DNA from: a virus
Lineage: Duplodnaviria; Heunggongvirae; Uroviricota; Caudoviricetes
Reading direction: 5' to 3' (one strand)
Length of the DNA stretch: 45,254 nt
IMG/VR virus record: IMGVR_UViG_643348545_000006
Coordinates: 1-45,254 of that record
The notes under the pieces were generated by a model. The model saw only the letters and a list, made by a program, of their open reading frames with translations. It was not told the origin of the DNA and did no database searches. Both the position numbers and the translations under genes were made by a program. This document shows, in pieces, positions 16,840 through 23,535 of the stretch (its first letter is position 1; each line of letters opens with the position of its first letter).

Positions 16840-16915
16840 GGCCCTTTAGCTCAGTGGTGAGAGCGAGCGACTCATAATCGCCAGGTCGCTGGTTCAAATC
16901 CAGCAAGGGCCACCA
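16840..16915 (+). tRNA. tRNA with CAT anticodon (Met or lysidine-modified Ile2)
   Basis: Manual cloverleaf fold: acceptor GGCCCTT/AAGGGCC, D-stem GCTC/GAGC, anticodon loop CTCATAA, T-loop TTCAAAT, encoded CCA; 76 nt. Confidence 0.85.
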
Positions 16916-16924
16916 TATCACATA

Positions 16925-17001
16925 CCGCCATTAGCTCATCGGGATAGAGCGCCAGCCTTCGGAGCTGGCTGCGCGGGGTTCGAGTCCTCGATGGCGGTCC
17001 A
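16925..17001 (+). tRNA. tRNA-Arg (anticodon read as TCG)
   Basis: Manual cloverleaf fold: acceptor CCGCCAT/ATGGCGG, anticodon stem CCAGC/GCTGG, loop CTTCGGA, T-loop TTCGAGT, encoded CCA; 77 nt. Confidence 0.75.
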
Positions 17002-17014
17002 TTATCAGCATCAT

Positions 17015-17091
17015 GCGTTGTTAGCTCAGCCGGACAGAGCAATTGCCTTCTAAGCAATCGGTCACTGGTTCGAATCCAGTACAACGCGCCA
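17015..17091 (+). tRNA. tRNA-Arg (anticodon TCT, AGA-decoding)
   Basis: Manual cloverleaf fold: acceptor GCGTTGT/ACAACGC, anticodon stem ATTGC/GCAAT, loop CTTCTAA, T-loop TTCGAAT, encoded CCA; 77 nt. Confidence 0.85.
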
Positions 17092-17399
17092 CACTTATTT
17101 TTTCTGTCTCACTTTGGTGGACCTGTTTGTTGCTAAAAAAGGAAGCATCAGGTGGTTAGCCGGGTATCAGTCATGCCCCGAAAATTTTAAATGTCTCACA
17201 ATTCAGTCAGTTGACAGTTGCCTGTCAGACTGAGTATTTGTTAAAAGAAACTGGCATGGTGAATCCCCCTGTGCGGAGGGGCATATCAGCGACAGGTGGT
17301 TGGTTATATCCCTTATCTGGTGCGGGTTCAGGTGCTGATACTGAACTCACCGGGAGGCACCCGGCATCATGCTGTATACAGAGATTAGGCATATATCCA

Positions 17400-17424
17400 G
17401 GCTCCTCATCGCAGGAGCCTTTTT
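17400..17424 (+). terminator. Rho-independent terminator, paired back-to-back with a minus-strand terminator hairpin (17431-17458)
   Basis: Stem GGCTCCT / AGGAGCC with 6-nt loop followed by 5 T; immediately followed by A7 plus stem CCCGCG / CGCGGG, which is a terminator when read on the minus strand. Confidence 0.5.
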
Positions 17425-17656
17425 ACATGCAAAAAAAGCCCGCGCCGGGAGACGCGGGCAGCAAGGAATAAACAACAAAACGTGAAGTAATCAATTTTTC
17501 AGCTGGCGAATAATACCCGACAGTAATCACTCTGCGCAACTGCGCGGCCTTTTTCGTATTGCGGGCTGTAGTCTTCCTTCTGTCATTGTCCTGTAACTTC
17601 CGGACTTCAGCCCGCCCCTTATCTGACTCACAACATTATCCCGACCGGGAGGATTC

Positions 17657-19639
17657 ATGGCATTTAAACACTATGACGTGGTCAGGGCGGCGTCGCCGTC
17701 AGACCTTGCGGAGCGACTGACTCAAAAACTGAAGGAGGGGTGGCAGCCATTTGGCAGTCCGGTGGCCATCACGCCCTATACCCTGATGCAGGCCATTGCG
17801 GCGGAAGGTGATGTCACCACACCGGTGGTGGTGCAACCGTCGGGTGATGGTGGCGCTGTTATCAGCACCACCAGCGAACCGGAATATTACTTTGTCATTG
17901 CGCTGGCCGGGCAGTCCAACTCGATGTCTTTTGGCGAGGGGCTGCCGCTGCCGGATACGTATGATCGTCCTGACCCGCGTATTAAGCAACTGGCGCGTCG
18001 CAGCACGGTGACACCGGGCGGTGCGGCCTGTGCATATAACGACATTATTCCTGCAGACCATTGTCTGCATGATGTGCAGGACGTGAGTAATCTGAATCAC
18101 CCGAAAGCAGACCTCAATAAAGGGCAGTATGGCTGTGTGGGGCATGCCCTGCATGTGGCCAAAAAACTGCTGCCGTTTATGCCTGCCCGTGCGGGGATCC
18201 TTCTTGTCCCGTGTGGACGTGGCGATTCGGGATTTACTGCGGGAGCAGAGGGCGCGTTTAATGAGGCGTCGGGTGCGACAGCGGGCTCTTCCCTGTGGGG
18301 GGGGGATAAACCGTTGTATCGTGACCTGGTCAGCAGAACGCGTGCAGCCCTGAAGAAAAATCCGAAAAACGTGCTGTTGTCGGTGATCTGGATGCAGGGG
18401 GAAAAAGATGTCAGTTCGGGGAGACATGCAGAGCACAATGCACTTTTTCTTGCCATGGTAAATAAATACCGTGCAGACCTGGCAGATATTGCAGACCAGT
18501 GTATTGGCGGGACAACGTCCGGCGTCCCGTGGATTTGCGGTGACACCACGTACGACTGGAAGGCGAAGTATGCAGTGCAGTATGAGGCGGTTTACGGAGG
18601 CTATAAAGGCAAGGCGGCGCAGAATATTCACTTTGTGCCGTTGATGACGGATGAGCATGGTGCGAATGTGCCGACAAACGAGCCGTCAGAAGATCCGGAC
18701 ATTATCACGGCGGGATACTATGGTGCCGCGTCACGCAGTAATGGTAACTGGACGACAGCCGATCGTAAAACGCACTTCAGCTCCTGGGCGCGAAGAGGCA
18801 TTGTTTCAGATCGGCTGGCAGGAGAGATACTGGTGCGAGCCGGGCGTTTGCTGCCGTTCCTGAGCGGGCAGTCTGCACCGCTGGCGACCACGCCAGCCTC
18901 CACGGGGGATGCACAGTCTGGCTCTGCGGGTCAGACGCAACAGCAGGGTGCAGGTACTTCTGCAGGCGGTCATACTGAAGCCGTAACAAGAATGGTGGCC
19001 GGATATGATGCGAACAGTGGCAGTGGTGTATGGACAGAGCAGCAGTGGAATGCGTCCGGTGGTAAAGGCACTGTGACGGATGACAGTGGCAGGAAGGCGC
19101 TGCGACTGGAAAAACAGCCGGGTAAACTGACCTCCTGGAAGATGTTCCGTACTGTTGCGGTGGAGGAGGCAAAAAATCTTCTCAGTAAGGGAGGTGAAAT
19201 TGCCGTGCGGTTTAAGATCCCGGAGGGTGTCGAACTGGTTAACGGTCAGTTTGTCTTTGGTCTGTACTGGCCGGTGTCGCAGTGGGCGTCAGGCGCGACA
19301 GCAAACAGCATGCTGGCGTCCTTCTTCCTTCAGACGGATGCATCAAATCTGAATCTGATGTACCACAAGGGGGAGTCGAATGCGCAACTGGGCACATTTG
19401 GGGCATTTGACCATAACTGGCATACAGTTGTTTTCCGCTTTGCGGGAAATAACAGCGAAAAAGTGGTGCCGGTGATTGATGATGCAGAGCAGTCTGCGTT
19501 TGACCTGGTGATGTGGACAAATGATGGCTTTACAGCAGATACGCTGACGCTGACAGATATCACGGGGGCAAAAGCGACGTATCCGATACTGCTTGATACG
19601 GTCACAGTCAAAGTTAACGAAAGCCGGGCATCATCATAA
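17657..19639 (+). CDS. NanS-like sialate O-acetylesterase (prophage nanS-p type)
   Basis: 660 aa; N-terminal domain followed by an SGNH/SASA-like esterase region with the GQSN motif (FVIALAGQSNSMSFGE); occupies the position downstream of the tRNA cluster where nanS-p sits in Stx-type phages. Confidence 0.7.
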   Translation: MAFKHYDVVRAASPSDLAERLTQKLKEGWQPFGSPVAITPYTLMQAIAAEGDVTTPVVVQPSGDGGAVISTTSEPEYYFVIALAGQSNSMSFGEGLPLPDTYDRPDPRIKQLARRSTVTPGGAACAYNDIIPADHCLHDVQDVSNLNHPKADLNKGQYGCVGHALHVAKKLLPFMPARAGILLVPCGRGDSGFTAGAEGAFNEASGATAGSSLWGGDKPLYRDLVSRTRAALKKNPKNVLLSVIWMQGEKDVSSGRHAEHNALFLAMVNKYRADLADIADQCIGGTTSGVPWICGDTTYDWKAKYAVQYEAVYGGYKGKAAQNIHFVPLMTDEHGANVPTNEPSEDPDIITAGYYGAASRSNGNWTTADRKTHFSSWARRGIVSDRLAGEILVRAGRLLPFLSGQSAPLATTPASTGDAQSGSAGQTQQQGAGTSAGGHTEAVTRMVAGYDANSGSGVWTEQQWNASGGKGTVTDDSGRKALRLEKQPGKLTSWKMFRTVAVEEAKNLLSKGGEIAVRFKIPEGVELVNGQFVFGLYWPVSQWASGATANSMLASFFLQTDASNLNLMYHKGESNAQLGTFGAFDHNWHTVVFRFAGNNSEKVVPVIDDAEQSAFDLVMWTNDGFTADTLTLTDITGAKATYPILLDTVTVKVNESRASS

Positions 19640-19778
19640 CCGGCAAAAAAAACCGCCAGCGGCAGGAACGGAAGCTGGCGGAGGTAATCCCAATGGAGAA
19701 TGTAAAGAAAAGATGCTTTCGTATATCGGTTTTTTAAATGAAAACAGTTCTCATTGTCAACCATAACGGTAAGAAACT

Positions 19779-19973
19779 ATGACATTTGTTCATCAGGTGA
19801 TGCTGTACTTCTGTACGGCGGTCTGTGTGCTGTATCTTCTTTCGGGTGGGTACAGGGCAGTGCGCGATTTCTGGCGCAGGCAGATTGATAAAAGGGCCGC
19901 AGAGAAAATCAGCGCCAGTCAGTCAGCCGGAGCAAAAACAGAAGCCCCACTCATTCCGGAACAACCTTCTTAA
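19779..19973 (+). CDS. Hypothetical small membrane protein (64 aa)
   Basis: Hydrophobic N-terminal segment (VMLYFCTAVCVLYLLSGG); weak support. Confidence 0.3.
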   Translation: MTFVHQVMLYFCTAVCVLYLLSGGYRAVRDFWRRQIDKRAAEKISASQSAGAKTEAPLIPEQPS

Positions 19974-19998
19974 TAACCCCTTTCAACGAGAAAATCCT

Positions 19999-20289
19999 AT
20001 GTCAGAAATAAAATCGCTGGTCACTGCTGAGGCAGTGAAGGAAGTCCTGCGCTCTGAAGAAGTCCGGAGCGCACTGAAACAGCAACTTCGGCAGAACCTT
20101 GAGGCGCGTCTTGATGCAGAAGTGGATTCAATTCTGGATGAATTGCTTGGTGCACAGCCGGAACCATCCCCGGAACTGCTTCCGGAACCACAGGCGGAAG
20201 ATGTCACCACGGAAAATGGTGATATTCAGCCGGAGTCACCGGTGACGGATATGACAGACACACAGCCAGAATCGGGCACAATGCTGTAA
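19999..20289 (+). CDS. Hypothetical acidic protein (96 aa)
   Basis: ATG at 19999 inside a longer tracked ORF; acidic, proline-rich C-terminus; no motif. Confidence 0.4.
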   Translation: MSEIKSLVTAEAVKEVLRSEEVRSALKQQLRQNLEARLDAEVDSILDELLGAQPEPSPELLPEPQAEDVTTENGDIQPESPVTDMTDTQPESGTML

Positions 20290-20364
20290 CGGTGAGTCAG
20301 GGTCATCAGTAAAGAGCTGGTGGCCCTTTTGTTGTTGTGAGCTTCCGAGTACGGGAGACGGGGT

Positions 20365-20580
20365 ATGTACCAGATGGAAAAAATCACAACAGGTGTGTCA
20401 TACACCACGTCAGCGGTGGGAACGGGCTACTGGTTCCTGCAGTTGCTGGACAGGGTTTCCCCGTCTCAGTGGGCGGCAATAGGCGTGCTGGGGAGTCTGC
20501 TGTTTGGTCTGCTGACATATCTGACTAACCTGTATTTCAAAATCAGAGAGGACCGTCGTAAGGCAGCGCGGGGAGAGTAA
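20365..20580 (+). CDS. S: Class II holin (pinholin, phage 21 S-type) with dual-start motif
   Basis: 71 aa; [10 protein letters not shown]...[51 protein letters not shown] closely matches recalled S21; two Met codons at positions 1 and 4 give a holin/antiholin dual start. Confidence 0.85.
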
Positions 20581-20584
20581 GGCG

Positions 20585-21220
20585 ATGAATAAACAATACA
20601 AACTGGTTGTTAAAGGGATAAATAATTACCCGGATAAGATTACTGTTACTGTGGCACTGGAAATTGGTGGGTATCCGTCACTGTTGTTGCCAAATGTGGC
20701 GATTAGTCTTGACCGTACTGAAGGTGCCACGCTGGAATTTTACGAAGCTGAGGCGAAAAAACAGGCGAAGCAGTTTTTCATGGATATTGCTGCCGCTTTA
20801 TGTGAAGGGGATGAGCAGTCGCCGGAAAAGCGCCCCATAATTTTAGAGGCGCAGGATGTGTTGATAACCTACAGAGGAAAACTACCGGGAATAATTACTG
20901 GTTCTCTGAAGACGCCACCGACGGCATTGCGGTCAGAAAACGATGATATTGAATCACGCATTGAAAAACTGGAGTGCTATATCGCTGAATTGAAAAAAAG
21001 CACCCCAACAAAAAATGAGGTGCTTGCAGCAGATGAAATGAAAGAAACTATTCTTGATCGCGCGGCGCATCTAAGCTGCGCTTCACGGTTGAAAGAGCAT
21101 CTTCAGCGGCCTGAAGAAAAACGCCGCGATGAGCAGTTCGCGGCGTTTTACGATTATTGCATTGAAGTTACTCGCAGGAATTTTGTGAAGGCTTTTGAGG
21201 AGAGTAAATCTCTTCAGTAA
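20585..21220 (+). CDS. Hypothetical protein (211 aa) inserted between holin and endolysin
   Basis: ORF begins 5 nt after the holin stop; AT-rich relative to flanking lysis genes; predicted charged, helix-rich C-terminal half; no recognisable motif. Confidence 0.6.
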   Translation: MNKQYKLVVKGINNYPDKITVTVALEIGGYPSLLLPNVAISLDRTEGATLEFYEAEAKKQAKQFFMDIAAALCEGDEQSPEKRPIILEAQDVLITYRGKLPGIITGSLKTPPTALRSENDDIESRIEKLECYIAELKKSTPTKNEVLAADEMKETILDRAAHLSCASRLKEHLQRPEEKRRDEQFAAFYDYCIEVTRRNFVKAFEESKSLQ

Positions 21221-21428
21221 GCTTAATGGCGGACGCTGCAATTAATTCAGGAAGGTCCGCAAGGTCATCTGTCAGTGGGAATGATGAAAAATCGGCGGCA
21301 GTTCTGTTAAGAATTGCTTTAACTAATTCCTTTTCCTCATCCGGCAACACGTTGATTAGAGCTACGACTGCTTGCCTGAGTGCGATTAAATCAGCAAAAG
21401 TTTGTTTTGGTAGATTTGGATAATCCAT
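21168..21428 (-). CDS. Hypothetical acidic small protein (86 aa), the only minus-strand gene in the late region
   Basis: ATG at 21428 (minus) preceded by GAGGTG; overlaps the 3' end of the 211-aa gene tail-to-tail by 53 bp; net acidic (about 14 Asp/Glu versus 7 Lys/Arg). Confidence 0.5.
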   Translation of the reverse strand: MDYPNLPKQTFADLIALRQAVVALINVLPDEEKELVKAILNRTAADFSSFPLTDDLADLPELIAASAIKLTEEIYSPQKPSQNSCE

Positions 21429-21539
21429 AGTCACCTCTGTGTTTATCAGATTGACATACCCTGGCCAGTGCCCACCACTGGCGGGGTGAAGGCTTAACAT
21501 ATCCAGGGATTCGGAACCGATAAATCCTGATAAATATCC

Positions 21540-22073
21540 ATGAACGCAAAAATCAAATACGGCCTGTCGGCTGCCGTTCTGGCGCTGATTGCCGCAGGGG
21601 CTTCTGCGCCTGAAATTCTCGACCAGTTTCTGGATGAAAAGGAAGGTAACCACACCACGGCATACCGTGATGGTGCAGGTATCTGGACCATCTGCCGTGG
21701 TGCCATCATGGTGGATGGCAAACCTGTCGTTCCGGGCATGAAGTTGTCGAAGGAAAAATGCGACCAGGTTAACGCCATTGAGCGTGATAAGGCGCTGGCG
21801 TGGGTGGAGAAAAACATCAGAGTGCCGCTGACCGAACCCCAGAAAGCGGGGATCGCGTCATTCTGTCCGTACAACATTGGTCCCGGTAAGTGTTTCCCGT
21901 CGACGTTTTACAGACGAATTAATGCTGGTGATCGCAGGGGAGCATGCGAAGCGATTCGCTGGTGGATTAAGGACGGTGGCAGAGACTGCCGTATTCGCTC
22001 AAATAACTGTTACGGTCAGGTATTCCGTCGTGACCAGGAGAGCGCGCTGGCGTGCTGGGGAATCGACAGATAA
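21540..22073 (+). CDS. R: SAR endolysin (lysozyme, phage 21 R-type)
   Basis: N-terminal signal-anchor-release segment (YGLSAAVLALIAAGASA) followed by lysozyme catalytic region (EGNHTTAYRDGAGIWTICRG); pairs with a pinholin. Confidence 0.85.
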   Translation: MNAKIKYGLSAAVLALIAAGASAPEILDQFLDEKEGNHTTAYRDGAGIWTICRGAIMVDGKPVVPGMKLSKEKCDQVNAIERDKALAWVEKNIRVPLTEPQKAGIASFCPYNIGPGKCFPSTFYRRINAGDRRGACEAIRWWIKDGGRDCRIRSNNCYGQVFRRDQESALACWGIDR

Positions 22074-22229
22074 GCAGAATATTTTGCTGAAAAATGCGGT
22101 TTGCTCACACGGACGGATAACACGAAATCCTGCGAACTGACAAAAACTAAGTGAATAAAAGTAAAAACCCCGTTTGTTGGCTGCAAGCGGGGTTTTGTGT
22201 TTCTGACCTTGGATAAGGCAAGGGAGAAC

Positions 22230-22412
22230 ATGGAAAAGTATAAACGAATTCTGTTGAGGTTGACTATGAAAAACGGCCTTGAACTGAAAGCGCCTGTAAC
22301 TGATGACATCAGCAGAGCACTGGCTTTTGCCATTAAGTGGGTGGCGGTCGGTGTTGCTGTGTCCCCGATGCTGTATGGGCTGGCAAAACTGGTCATTGCG
22401 TTGAAATCGTGA
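22230..22412 (+). CDS. Hypothetical small membrane protein (60 aa)
   Basis: ATG at 22230 preceded by AAGGGAGAA; C-terminal hydrophobic segment ([22 protein letters not shown]). Confidence 0.4.
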
Positions 22413-22426
22413 AGGGAGGATTAAGC

Positions 22427-22558
22427 ATGTCAGACAAACTCATAACGCTGGCGAAGATCCTCTGTGTAATTGTCGGCATTTCATTTTCACTAATGCTGGT
22501 TGCTCTTTTTCTTTCCATGGCCTGGATGATGTTGTCTTCGTCGGGGCTGCTGGGGTGA
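22427..22558 (+). CDS. Hypothetical small membrane peptide (43 aa)
   Basis: ATG at 22427 preceded by GAAGGGAGGA; single hydrophobic helix ([26 protein letters not shown]); stop overlaps the Rz start. Confidence 0.35.
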
Positions 22559-23028
22559 ACATAAACCGAATGCTTTCCGCGTTTATCGTTATTCTGCTGG
22601 TGGCCTGTGGAGCGCTGTGGATGGCAACAGACCATTACCGTGATAACGCGATTACCTACAAAGCGCAGCGCGATAACAAAGCCAGTGAACTGAAGCTGGC
22701 GAACGCAACCATTACTGATATGCAGGTGCGCCAGCGCGATGTTGCTGCGCTCGATGCAAAATACTCGAGGGAATTAGCCGATGCGAGAGCTGAAAATGAA
22801 ACTTTTCGCGCTGACGTTGCCGCTGGTCGTAAGCGCCTGCGTATCAACGCCACCTGTCCAGGTCCCGTGCGTGAAGCCACCGGCACCGCCCGCGTGGATA
22901 ATGCAACCGGCCCCCGACTGGCAGACACCGTTACACGGGATTATTTCACCCTCAGAGAGCGGCTGATGACGATGCAGAAGCAACTGGAAGGGGCGCAGGA
23001 ATATATCCGTACTCAGTGCATTAAGTAG
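22555..23028 (+). CDS. Rz: Rz i-spanin
   Basis: 157 aa with N-terminal transmembrane segment and coiled-coil-type periplasmic region; contains an embedded +1-frame lipoprotein ORF (Rz1). Confidence 0.75.
22781..22966 (+). CDS. Rz1: Rz1 o-spanin (lipoprotein embedded in Rz)
   Basis: Lipobox LVVSAC and proline-rich [30 protein letters not shown], closely matching recalled lambda Rz1 ([30 protein letters not shown]). Confidence 0.75.
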
Positions 23029-23051
23029 TCTTTTTATTATCCGGAGGATGT

Positions 23052-23276
23052 ATGAAGAAATTACTGGTAACCGTAAAGCCTTTTCAGGGAACAATTCCGT
23101 TCCGTATTTTGCAGCGTGGTCGTGTTCTTGTTGAAGGTTCGTTCAGTGGTAAATGTACGCAATTACACTCCCGGACCTTTCAGGTGAATGCCACGAATGA
23201 AGAGCTAACCGTTGAGTGTACGATGAATGCCGCTAAATGCCGCATGGTATCCGCTGCATTACAGCCAGTGTGTTGA
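23052..23276 (+). CDS. Hypothetical small protein (74 aa, four Cys) between the spanins and cos
   Basis: ATG preceded by GGAGGA with good spacing; no motif recognised. Confidence 0.4.
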   Translation: MKKLLVTVKPFQGTIPFRILQRGRVLVEGSFSGKCTQLHSRTFQVNATNEELTVECTMNAAKCRMVSAALQPVC

Positions 23277-23535
23277 GCGACCTTATTATCCATGCGCGGT
23301 ATTGTCGCCGTATTCCTGCATTAACAGAGACCGCAGCCCGACAGGGAGACTCCTCTGCGAGAGTGTGCGGGGATAATCAAAAACGATACACACCGGGGTT
23401 TACCGCGTTAACGGAGCGCGGCGTTGTCCCCTCATGGTCGCTGGTCCGGTGCGATGGTGGAAGAAACTGGATTTTGTTGCAACTGATAATCATTATCATT
23501 TTGCCGGGTCCTTTCCGGCGATCCGGGCCGTTACG

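What the first reader, a model, noticed from the sequence alone, without database searches (positions are those of the whole stretch)
20585..21539. Two unknown convergent genes inserted between pinholin and SAR endolysin
In phage-21-type lysis cassettes the holin and endolysin genes are adjacent. Here about 960 bp separate them, carrying a 211-aa ORF (plus strand, no recognisable domain, helix-rich C-terminal half) and an 86-aa acidic ORF on the opposite strand (21168-21428) that overlaps it tail-to-tail by 53 bp. The insert is visibly more AT-rich than the flanking lysis genes, and the 86-aa gene is the only minus-strand gene in the whole late region. This looks like a horizontally acquired accessory module. 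Candidate roles are superinfection defence, anti-defence (the small acidic protein could be a DNA mimic) or lysis-timing control, but none is established.
Basis: partly seen in the sequence, partly recalled or inferred. Interest (0 to 1): 0.72.

Follow-up and report, generated by a model that had tools for sequence, protein, structure and literature searches.

The report
Accessory gene pair inside phage lysis cassette
The DNA between the holin and endolysin genes of this E. coli prophage is an optional add-on holding a YdfR-family gene and a real small gene on the opposite strand that overlaps its end; both are widespread in E. coli and Salmonella prophages, already catalogued, and of untested function.

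Summary
A 211-aa plus-strand ORF (20585-21220) and an 86-aa acidic minus-strand ORF (21168-21428) overlap by 53 bp between an S21-type holin and a SAR endolysin. The region has 44.6% GC against 52.7% for the window.

One claim is wrong: the 211-aa protein has a recognisable domain, DUF1327/YdfR (E 1e-41). Its first 74 residues are 43% identical to the part of K-12 YdfR reported in 2026 to bind the catalytic half of RNase E.

The slot is variable. It is empty in 933W, and elsewhere holds a short ydfR, a long ydfR, or ydfR plus a different antisense ORF. That supports "optional cargo".

New here: the 86-aa ORF is a genuine gene. Evidence is a ribosome-binding site kept in three lineages, the pattern of variation by codon position, and a dual-coding signature in the overlap. 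It always travels with the helical C-terminal module of YdfR. That module also exists as a stand-alone 67-73-aa protein, including in Salmonella prophages, where the pair follows the spanin gene of an unrelated lysis cassette.

Structure, defence-system and RNA-family searches found nothing. No promoter was identified. Function is inferred only: a non-essential late RNA/RNase E-binding protein plus a convergent partner. Moderate interest.

The parts
20365..20580 (+). S21-type class II holin (pinholin). This is context and marks the left border of the slot.
   Evidence: PF04971 at E 9e-33 and phrog_9876/phrog_20 'holin'. In 933W the endolysin ATG follows this stop codon after 4 nt.
20585..21220 (+). 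ydfR-family gene, 211 aa. It is a mosaic of a DUF1327 N-domain, a disordered linker and a helical C-module.
   Evidence: PF07041 at E 1.4e-41. phrog_2091, phrog_1085 and phrog_406 match. Homologues named 'YdfR family protein' have lengths from 116 to 333 aa.
20585..20920 (+). DUF1327 N-terminal domain, residues 1-112. The predicted fold is beta-beta-beta-alpha over residues 1-73.
   Evidence: Pfam match to residues 1-112. pLDDT is 65-88 for residues 1-70. It is 43% identical over residues 1-74 to K-12 YdfR, E 8e-21. Residues 1-72 of K-12 YdfR bound the RNase E N-terminal half in PMC13232886.
20921..21220 (+). Helical C-module, residues 113-211. It comprises a coil (ESRIEKLECYIAELKK), an allele-specific 37-aa insert (residues 139-175, 20999-21109) and a conserved end (EEKRRDEQFAAFYDYCIEVTRRNFVKAFEESKSLQ).
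   Evidence: Alignments A1 and A3. Stand-alone homologues of 67 aa in E. coli and 73 aa in Salmonella. Helices at 122-138, 143-173 and 180-209.
21168..21428 (-). ORF86: a gene for an 86-aa acidic, soluble protein predicted to form three helices. It matches phrog_2572 and is annotated 'hypothetical protein' in RefSeq.
   Evidence: phrog_2572 at E 3.6e-50. Homologues. AF2 gives helices 8-27, 30-48 and 56-74 with pLDDT 69.5. Coding evidence.
21168..21220 (.). 53-bp convergent overlap. The last 17 codons and stop of ydfR and the last 17 codons and stop of ORF86 are encoded on opposite strands.
   Evidence: The overlap is 53 nt in 79 of 90 loci and 59 nt in the Salmonella and L160 lineages. Nucleotide diversity is lowest here. 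ydfR third positions drop from 0.078 outside the overlap to 0.007 inside it.
21432..21438 (-). Shine-Dalgarno sequence (AGAGGTG) 3 nt upstream of the ORF86 ATG.
   Evidence: Read. Equivalent TAAGGA motifs precede the homologues in L014 and Salmonella L099.
21429..21539 (.). 111-bp divergent region between the ORF86 start and the R start. It holds a conserved block ATATTTATCAGGATTTATC (minus strand, 21519-21537) and a hairpin GCCAGTG-GTGGG-CACTGGC (21464-21482). The promoter of ORF86 was not identified.
   Evidence: Searches show the block conserved in E. coli, L014 and Salmonella. No sigma-70 consensus site was found here. Diversity is 0.067-0.078, higher than in the coding parts.
20998..21025 (-). 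Terminator-like hairpin with a T-run on the minus strand, about 140 nt downstream of the ORF86 stop. It occurs only in the 211-aa allele.
   Evidence: It lies in the 37-aa insert that the 183-aa alleles lack. No equivalent was found in other alleles. It may be chance.
21540..22073 (+). SAR-type endolysin R. This is context and marks the right border of the slot. Its first ~6 codons (MNAKIKY) differ from those of 933W (MSRKLRY).
   Evidence: PF00959 at E 1e-23 and phrog_7. 933W junction.

Best explanation
The 959-bp spacer is an optional accessory module of lambdoid (Stx-phage-like) lysis cassettes. It is not part of the core lysis machinery.

Its plus-strand gene encodes a YdfR-family protein. 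This is transcribed with the holin and endolysin from the late operon. Its DUF1327 N-domain is homologous to the part of K-12 YdfR that binds the catalytic half of RNase E and co-purifies with RNA. A disordered linker joins it to a helical C-module.

The minus-strand ORF86 is a genuine protein-coding gene. Its tail is overprinted on the tail of the C-module.

The C-module plus ORF86 is a two-gene unit that has relocated at least once. It occurs with or without the DUF1327 domain. In Salmonella it sits at a different place in an unrelated lysis cassette.

Inferred working model:
- YdfR acts late, in the cytoplasm, on RNA or RNase E. It might tune the stability of late or lysis transcripts.
- ORF86 is transcribed against the late operon. 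It can therefore accumulate mainly when late transcription is off, as in the lysogen. It acts as a partner or antagonist of the C-module, or as a separate lysogen-expressed factor.

Shown here: gene reality, domain identity, modular architecture, variability of the slot, and co-inheritance of the pair. Inferred only: RNase E binding by this allele, expression timing, and any interaction between the two proteins.
For: Domain identity:
- PF07041 scores 141 bits.
- The N-domain is 43% identical to K-12 YdfR residues 1-74, E 8e-21.
- Those residues bound RNase E 1-597 in two-hybrid and pull-down assays, and the protein co-purified with RNA (PMC13232886).
- K-12 has the same gene order, essQ-ydfR-rrrQ.

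The module is optional:
- S and R are adjacent in 933W.
- Six different slot states were seen.
- GC is 0.446 against 0.527 for the window.

ORF86 is a real gene:
- In-frame indels occur among homologues.
- Homologues at 38-58% identity keep the ORF, its length and its start position.
- A Shine-Dalgarno sequence is conserved in three lineages.
- Diversity runs pos2 < pos1 < pos3 in its frame.
- The wobble-aligned plus-strand frame carries an internal stop in Salmonella L099. That frame also scores worse for identity and BLOSUM across lineages.
- ydfR third positions are about 10-fold less variable inside the overlap.

The pair is a unit:
- In 79 of 90 ORF86 loci an intact partner ORF (67 to 211 aa) ending in the C-module overlaps ORF86 by 53 nt, plus 3 Salmonella loci at 59 nt. 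The rest were frameshifted or not resolved.
- A stand-alone C-module of 67 aa sits between S and R in E. coli, on 393 contigs.
- In Salmonella a 73-aa C-module and a 93-aa ORF86 homologue overlap by 59 nt. They follow a DUF2514 spanin gene in a cassette built from holin_8, holin_3_7 and a GH19 endolysin.
- A third lineage (L160) has flanking S and R still about 90% like the window, while both members of the pair have diverged.
Against: - No expression data exist for either gene in this phage.
- No sigma-70 consensus promoter or conserved terminator was found for ORF86.
- Seven viral contigs have ATG changed to ACG at the ORF86 start.
- pN/pS alone does not separate ORF86 (0.45) from the wobble-aligned plus-strand frame (0.35).
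- Co-inheritance of the pair is partly trivial, because the genes physically overlap.
- Most of the C-module also occurs in long YdfR forms that lack ORF86, such as Stx2_95. ORF86 is therefore not obligatory for C-module proteins.
- Overproducing K-12 YdfR changed few transcripts, so any effect on RNase E may be weak.
- The N-domain here is only 43% identical to the tested protein.
- No fold or profile match points to any biochemical activity.
Confidence: 0.45

Rival explanations
1. ORF86 is an independent 'moron', like lambda bor. It would be expressed from the prophage against the late operon and serve the lysogen, for example in superinfection exclusion, anti-defence or host modulation. It would have no functional link to YdfR, and the overlap would be mere packing.
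For: - It is antisense to the late operon and is the only minus-strand CDS there.
- It is AT-rich, with GC 0.418 and GC3 0.35.
- It is present in only about 5% of complete E. coli genomes.
- Phage 86 and F1022 carry an unrelated 104-aa antisense ORF at the same spot. The position therefore accepts different antisense cargo.
Against: - No PADLOC hit and no structural analogue.
- No recognisable promoter or terminator.
- When the gene relocated to a different site in Salmonella cassettes, the C-module came with it as an intact, translationally coupled ORF and kept the ~59-nt overlap.
- A net charge of -7 is modest for a DNA mimic.
Confidence: 0.3
2. Both proteins are lysis-timing regulators, acting as cytoplasmic modulators of the holin or endolysin. 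That would explain why the pair is always found inside lysis cassettes.
For: The pair lies in lysis cassettes of two unrelated types: S21/R21 in E. coli, and holin_8 + holin_3_7 + GH19 in Salmonella. ydfR is only 4 nt downstream of the holin stop codon.
Against: - Neither protein has a signal peptide or a convincing transmembrane segment. Known antiholins and endolysin regulators act at the membrane.
- The slot is empty in 933W-type phages, which lyse normally according to established knowledge.
- The borders of lysis cassettes are known hot spots for unrelated cargo such as bor and ant.
Confidence: 0.15
3. The functional element is RNA, not the ORF86 protein. Convergent transcription across the 3' end of ydfR would give an antisense RNA that silences leaky late transcripts in the lysogen, in the manner of a type I toxin-antitoxin system.
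For: The convergent 53-59-nt 3' overlap is conserved in three lineages. A minus-strand terminator-like hairpin lies inside ydfR in this allele.
Against: - Protein-level conservation, a conserved Shine-Dalgarno sequence and the codon-position pattern show that ORF86 is translated.
- The hairpin is missing from most alleles.
- No Rfam match.
- No promoter was found.
Confidence: 0.07
4. ORF86 is not a gene. Either the region is a non-coding remnant, or the real gene is the co-directional 65-aa ORF at 21226-21423. PGAP's 'pseudogene' flag on ydfR would then be correct.
For: - pN/pS of the plus-strand wobble-aligned frame (0.35) is as low as that of ORF86 (0.45).
- PGAP marks ydfR as 'incomplete, missing C-terminus' in identical genomes.
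- The codon-usage score of ORF86 is near zero.
Against: - The plus-strand frame has an internal stop in Salmonella L099, while the ORF86 homologue stays open.
- That frame shows lower identity and poorer substitutions across lineages.
- It has no Shine-Dalgarno sequence and no conserved start.
- The diversity pattern fits the ORF86 frame.
- The 211-, 183-, 176- and 169-aa ydfR ORFs are intact in 78 of 90 loci. Their C-module is also conserved as a stand-alone protein. The PGAP flag therefore looks like an artefact of comparison with longer family members.
Confidence: 0.03

Closest known systems
YdfR of the E. coli K-12 Qin cryptic prophage (DUF1327, PF07041; b1555, 103 aa)
   Same: It has the same Pfam family and the same position between a class II holin (essQ) and a lysozyme (rrrQ). 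Residues 1-74 align at 43% identity. K-12 YdfR is the only member with experimental data: it binds the RNase E N-terminal half through residues 1-72 and co-purifies with RNA (PMC13232886).
   Different: K-12 YdfR is 103 aa and ends in one short helix. Its stop overlaps the rrrQ start. It has no C-module and no antisense ORF. The window protein is 211 aa, carries an extra ~100-aa helical module, and is followed by ORF86 and a 111-bp spacer.
Lambda-type 'morons' in or next to the lysis cassette, such as bor (antisense, downstream of Rz) and ant in Stx phages
   Same: These too are optional genes found in only some relatives. Their composition differs from the backbone. bor is transcribed against the late operon (own knowledge). 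bor and ant appear in neighbouring slots of related phages.
   Different: Classical morons carry their own promoter and terminator, and neither was found here. bor is a lipoprotein, whereas ORF86 is a soluble acidic helical protein. ORF86 overlaps and co-travels with a late-operon gene.
Phage-encoded modulators of RNase E and the degradosome: phiKZ Dip (gp37), T4 Srd, T7 gp0.7
   Same: They set a precedent for phage proteins that bind RNase E to alter RNA decay during infection (PMC4980113, found; Srd and gp0.7 from own knowledge).
   Different: No sequence or fold similarity to them was detected. Dip binds the RNA-binding segments of the C-terminal scaffold, whereas K-12 YdfR binds the N-terminal half. 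No effect of YdfR on RNase E activity has been shown.
Convergent overlapping gene pairs of type I toxin-antitoxin systems, such as par/fst of pAD1
   Same: The two genes are transcribed convergently and overlap at their 3' ends (own knowledge for par).
   Different: Both partners here are conserved protein-coding genes. No small toxic membrane peptide and no antisense sRNA signature were found.

Membership tests
YdfR / DUF1327 family (PF07041) | Match to the Pfam model above its gathering score | tested here: met
   141 bits against a cutoff of 25, E 1.4e-41, residues 1-112 covering profile positions 1-92 of 93.
YdfR / DUF1327 family (PF07041) | Location between a class II (S21-type) holin and a lysozyme in a lambdoid prophage, as for K-12 essQ-ydfR-rrrQ | tested here: met
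   Window gene order. K-12 gene order. Many other prophages.
YdfR / DUF1327 family (PF07041) | Binding to the RNase E N-terminal half and to RNA. This has been reported for K-12 YdfR only. | not testable with these tools
   Only homology to the binding segment is shown: 43% identity, E 8e-21. The experiment is in PMC13232886.
DUF1823 (PF08853), the label given to ORF86 in GenBank record PV340545 | Match above the Pfam gathering score | tested here: not met
   15.3 bits against a cutoff of 25, E 0.023, 30 residues only. The label is not justified.
PHROG 2572 (unknown function) | Full-length match to the family profile | tested here: met
   E 3.6e-50, residues 1-86 on profile positions 1-86 of 86.
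Known anti-phage defence systems (PADLOC-DB 2.0) | Match of either protein to a defence-system component model | tested here: not met
   No hit for ORF86. For YdfR211 only a chance-level Cmr5 hit at E 0.018.
Moron, in the sense of Hendrix and colleagues | Present in some but not all closely related phages, with atypical base composition | tested here: met
   Slot empty in 933W. GC 0.446 against 0.527.
Moron, in the sense of Hendrix and colleagues | Own promoter and terminator flanking the gene | tested here: inconclusive
   No sigma-70 consensus site upstream of ORF86. One allele-specific terminator-like hairpin. A consensus scan cannot exclude a weak or regulated promoter.
DNA-mimic proteins (Ocr, ArdA type) | Very high density of surface negative charge that mimics the DNA backbone | tested here: inconclusive
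   pI 4.34 and net charge -7 over 86 aa. No structural match to any mimic. The charge is modest, and binding cannot be tested here.
Type II toxin-antitoxin pair | Two co-directional genes in one operon, with a recognisable toxin or antitoxin fold | tested here: not met
   The genes are convergent. No Pfam, NCBIfam, PADLOC or PDB match to toxin or antitoxin families.
Core lysis proteins (holin/antiholin, endolysin, spanin) | Membrane or periplasmic targeting, and presence in all cassettes of the type | tested here: not met
   No transmembrane segment or signal sequence. Absent from 933W-type cassettes.

The most novel reading that the evidence does not exclude
The helical C-module and ORF86 could form a cognate two-protein switch written on both strands of the same DNA. 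ORF86 would be made in the lysogen and neutralise the C-module protein. Q-driven late transcription would then run over the ORF86 gene and release a late-acting effector. When fused to DUF1327, that effector would be delivered to RNase E or to RNA. This would be a new kind of convergent, overprinted toxin-antidote-like pair. It would tie RNA-decay control to the lysogeny-lysis decision in E. coli and Salmonella prophages.
Probability: 0.12. Interest if true: 0.7.

Novelty: new variant of a known kind. Interest (0 to 1): 0.4.

Why it matters
- Prevalence: some part of a ydfR-family gene is found in over half of complete E. coli genomes. The ORF86 pair is in about 5% of them, and its Salmonella homologue was seen on 1000 or more contigs (the counting limit).
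- Location: these genes lie next to the lysis genes of lambdoid prophages related to those that release Shiga toxin, yet nothing is known about what they do.
- What this work adds:
  - ORF86 is a real gene.
  - ydfR here is an intact mosaic gene and not the pseudogene that PGAP calls.
  - The C-module plus ORF86 has moved as one unit between unrelated lysis cassettes.
- Testable questions: combined with the 2026 report that K-12 YdfR binds RNase E, this gives concrete experiments. Do these prophages tune RNA decay late in infection? Is the antisense partner a regulator?
- If the answers are negative, the region is simply another piece of mosaic prophage cargo.

Tried and rejected
- **Pfam and NCBIfam for ORF86.** The only hit was sub-threshold DUF1823, so the GenBank label was rejected.
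- **PADLOC defence models.** Nothing found.
- **PDB sequence-profile searches for both families.** Nothing credible.
- **Rfam over 19500-23500.** Only chance-level hits.
- **Promoter and terminator scans in three alleles.** No promoter for ORF86 and no conserved terminator. Hand inspection of the conserved block found no arrangement with conserved spacing.
- **Idea that ORF86 DNA is a decayed remnant of the extra C-terminal domain of long YdfR forms.** Rejected. Similarity stops at YDYC-IEVTRRNFVKAF, and no frame of the ORF86 region resembles that domain.
- **Hits of ORF86 to 975-aa and 1305-aa proteins.** Their repeats look TPR-like. I treated them as similarity to a repetitive helical motif, not homology.
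- **pN/pS as a test of coding.** Ambiguous, because the plus-strand frame shares wobble positions. It was replaced by stop-codon, substitution-quality and codon-position tests.
- **Scan of one genome per species.** Only the E. coli representative was found.
- **Literature.** There is no paper on the gene pair. A comparative study of Stx phages does not mention genes between S and R. No paper was found for the PhiR phage records.
Full report
**1. What is at the coordinates**

The window is the late region of a lambdoid, Stx-phage-like E. coli prophage. The ORF list and sequence show, in order:
- an S21-type holin at 20365-20580 (+);
- a 211-aa ORF at 20585-21220 (+), starting 4 nt after the holin stop;
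- an 86-aa ORF at 21168-21428 (-) with ATG at 21428;
- a 111-bp gap;
- a lysozyme with a hydrophobic N-terminus at 21540-22073 (+).

The two middle ORFs overlap tail to tail by 53 bp. Pfam and PHROGs confirm the holin (PF04971), the endolysin (PF00959) and the Rz spanin further on.

The insert has GC 0.446 against 0.527 for the window. Only 4.8% of 955-bp windows are as low. GC3 is 0.43 for ydfR and 0.35 for ORF86, against 0.60-0.64 in the flanking lysis genes. In a genome with a 100% identical copy (JE86-ST05), ORF86 is the only minus-strand CDS annotated from the replication genes to the tail tip.

**2. The 211-aa protein is not domain-less**

It matches PF07041 (DUF1327) at 141 bits over residues 1-112. 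RefSeq names its homologues 'YdfR family protein'. The K-12 Qin prophage has the same order, essQ-ydfR-rrrQ. K-12 YdfR residues 1-74 align with the window protein at 43% identity, E 8e-21.

The only functional data for the family come from a 2026 paper (PMC13232886):
- K-12 YdfR, through residues 1-72, binds the N-terminal half of RNase E in two-hybrid and co-purification assays.
- Its preparations carry RNA.
- Overproduction changes few transcripts.

AlphaFold2 gives the window protein a beta-beta-beta-alpha N-domain (pLDDT 65-88), a disordered linker (residues 73-120) and three low-confidence helices in the C-terminal half.

**3. The slot is variable**

- In 933W and many Stx2a phages S and R are 4 nt apart, giving a 754-bp span. 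This was so in 31 of an evenly spaced sample of 60 of the 454 matching phage records. Thirteen carried something between the two genes.
- Observed states: empty; short ydfR of ~114 aa (BP-4795); long ydfR of 329 aa with an extra C-terminal domain (Stx2_95); long ydfR plus an unrelated 104-aa antisense ORF (phage 86, F1022); ydfR plus ORF86 (this window, PhiR5_1); and a stand-alone C-module plus ORF86.
- Among 5426 complete E. coli genomes, 2894 match some part of the region, mostly the DUF1327 part. Of these, 294 carry the ORF86 segment (21100-21545) and 24 carry the full window arrangement.
- Compared with 933W, the left junction is at the holin stop. The right junction is about 20 nt inside R, whose first codons differ.

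**4. ydfR here is a mosaic gene, not a pseudogene**

PGAP marks it 'incomplete, missing C-terminus'. The family alignment shows instead a modular protein with four parts:
- the N-domain;
- a coil (ESRIEKLE..ELKK);
- an optional 37-aa insert (residues 139-175);
- a highly conserved end (KRRDEQFAAFYDYCIEVTRRNFVK.FEE.KSLQ).

The same end is attached to two N-domain alleles that are only ~60% identical to each other. Intact ORFs of 183, 176, 211, 169 and 171 aa account for 78 of 90 loci.

**5. ORF86 is a real gene**

The family is small. It comprises E. coli sequences at 85-100% identity plus three divergent lineages:
- Salmonella, 93 aa, 49-58% identity;
- metagenome contig L014, 89 aa, 41%;
- metagenome contig L160, 93 aa, 38%.

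Evidence for coding:
- Indels are in frame.
- The start position and a Shine-Dalgarno sequence are kept in three lineages.
- Nucleotide diversity by codon position is pos2 0.019 < pos1 0.028 < pos3 0.051.
- Inside the 53-bp overlap, ydfR third positions are ORF86 second positions. Their diversity falls to 0.007 from 0.078 outside the overlap. This is a dual-coding signature.

pN/pS alone is ambiguous: 0.45 for ORF86 against 0.35 for a 65-aa plus-strand ORF that shares its wobble positions. That alternative frame has an internal stop in Salmonella L099. It also has lower identity and poorer substitutions across lineages, and it lacks a ribosome-binding site.

The AF2 model is a three-helix protein with pLDDT 69.5 and a disordered tail. 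The protein is acidic (pI 4.34, net -7) and has no convincing membrane segment.

**6. The C-module and ORF86 travel as a pair**

- In 79 of 90 ORF86 loci an intact partner ORF ending in the C-module overlaps ORF86 by 53 nt, plus 3 Salmonella loci at 59 nt. The remaining loci were frameshifted or not resolved.
- In E. coli a 67-aa protein consisting of the C-module alone sits between S and R with ORF86. That protein is on 393 contigs.
- In Salmonella enterica prophages the lysis cassette is built from unrelated parts: Phage_holin_8, Phage_holin_3_7, a GH19 endolysin and a DUF2514 spanin. There a 73-aa C-module homologue (E 2e-6) follows the spanin gene. It is overlapped by 59 nt by the 93-aa ORF86 homologue on the other strand, just before the terminase genes.
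- The stand-alone C-modules keep an invariant E..KRRDE..AA.Y core.
- The Salmonella copy keeps a stretch that in E. coli lies immediately upstream of R, and apparently a degenerate remnant of the R start. The conserved block is ATATTTATCAGGNTTTATC. This suggests the pair was copied out of an S-ydfR-ORF86-R setting.
- In L160 the flanking S and R are still about 90% like the window, while both pair members have diverged strongly.

**7. What could not be established**

- No sigma-70 consensus promoter or conserved terminator for ORF86 was found. The one minus-strand terminator-like hairpin (20998-21025) lies in the allele-specific insert.
- ORF86 DNA is not a relic of the long-form YdfR C-domain.
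- No paper describes the pair.

**8. Interpretation**

But one of its genes belongs to a catalogued family that now has a first experimental lead, RNase E and RNA binding. The proposed roles in defence, anti-defence or as a DNA mimic have no support.

The best-supported picture has three parts:
- It is a non-essential module.
- It encodes a late-expressed cytoplasmic YdfR protein.
- Its convergent, overprinted partner gene co-inherits with the YdfR C-module.

The mechanism is inference. That covers RNA-decay tuning by YdfR, and expression of ORF86 when late transcription is off as a partner or antagonist of the C-module.

The main rival is that ORF86 is an independent lysogen-expressed moron that merely abuts ydfR.

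The finding is of moderate interest. The pair is widespread and unstudied, its genetic arrangement is unusual and conserved, and the hypotheses are testable. Nothing yet points to a new mechanism.

Noticed in passing
window 16840-17657: Three tRNA genes follow a DNA methyltransferase gene: Met/CAT at 16840-16915, Arg/TCG at 16925-17001 and Arg/TCT at 17015-17091. About 565 bp without a convincing ORF then lead to the 660-aa SASA/NanS-p-like esterase. This is where Stx phages carry stx, so the prophage looks like a stx-less relative. The otherwise identical JE86-ST05 prophage has TerB and DUF3927 genes there.
   Followed up: partly
window 20299-20327 and 22164-22196 (+): Two strong intrinsic-terminator-like hairpins lie inside the late operon, one just upstream of the holin and one just downstream of the endolysin. 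Q-modified polymerase presumably reads through them.
   Followed up: no
window 22074-22554: A second variable slot lies between R and Rz. Here it holds small ORFs, such as a 71-aa phrog_1115 protein at 22197-22412. Related phages carry the ant antirepressor or other small genes at this position.
   Followed up: no
L002 2600-2914 (-) (Stx2 phage 86) and L007 2694-3008 (-): An unrelated 104-aa antisense ORF (WP_000551290.1) occupies the same position between a long ydfR and R. It has no Pfam or PADLOC match and no similarity to ORF86.
   Followed up: partly
L068, L069, L070, L073-L075 and L086 (IMG/VR contigs), at the ORF86 start: Seven viral contigs have ACG in place of the ORF86 ATG. The reading frame stays open upstream into the antisense of the R start, and database entries of 125-143 aa use upstream starts. 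It is unclear whether these copies are inactive or use another start.
   Followed up: no
window 21464-21537 (-); L099 5495-5585 (-): Two non-coding motifs upstream of ORF86 are conserved between E. coli and Salmonella, even though the coding sequence is only about 50% identical. They are ATATTTATCAGGNTTTATC and CC(A/T)GTGGTGGG(A)CACTG. The first is also the stretch immediately upstream of R in E. coli. Their role, whether operator, promoter or leader, is unknown.
   Followed up: partly
L008 20001-20342 and the same gene in L005, L006 and L009-L012: RefSeq/PGAP annotates the intact 183-211-aa ydfR ORFs as pseudogenes 'missing C-terminus' covering only the first ~112 codons. This probably results from comparison with longer family members.
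   Followed up: yes
L103 1500-2225 and L104 1497-2222 (Salmonella prophages): A pertussis-toxin-S1-like ADP-ribosyltransferase gene (PF02917) lies between the antiterminator gene and the lysis cassette that carries the C-module/ORF86 pair. This is analogous to the position of stx in E. coli phages.
   Followed up: no
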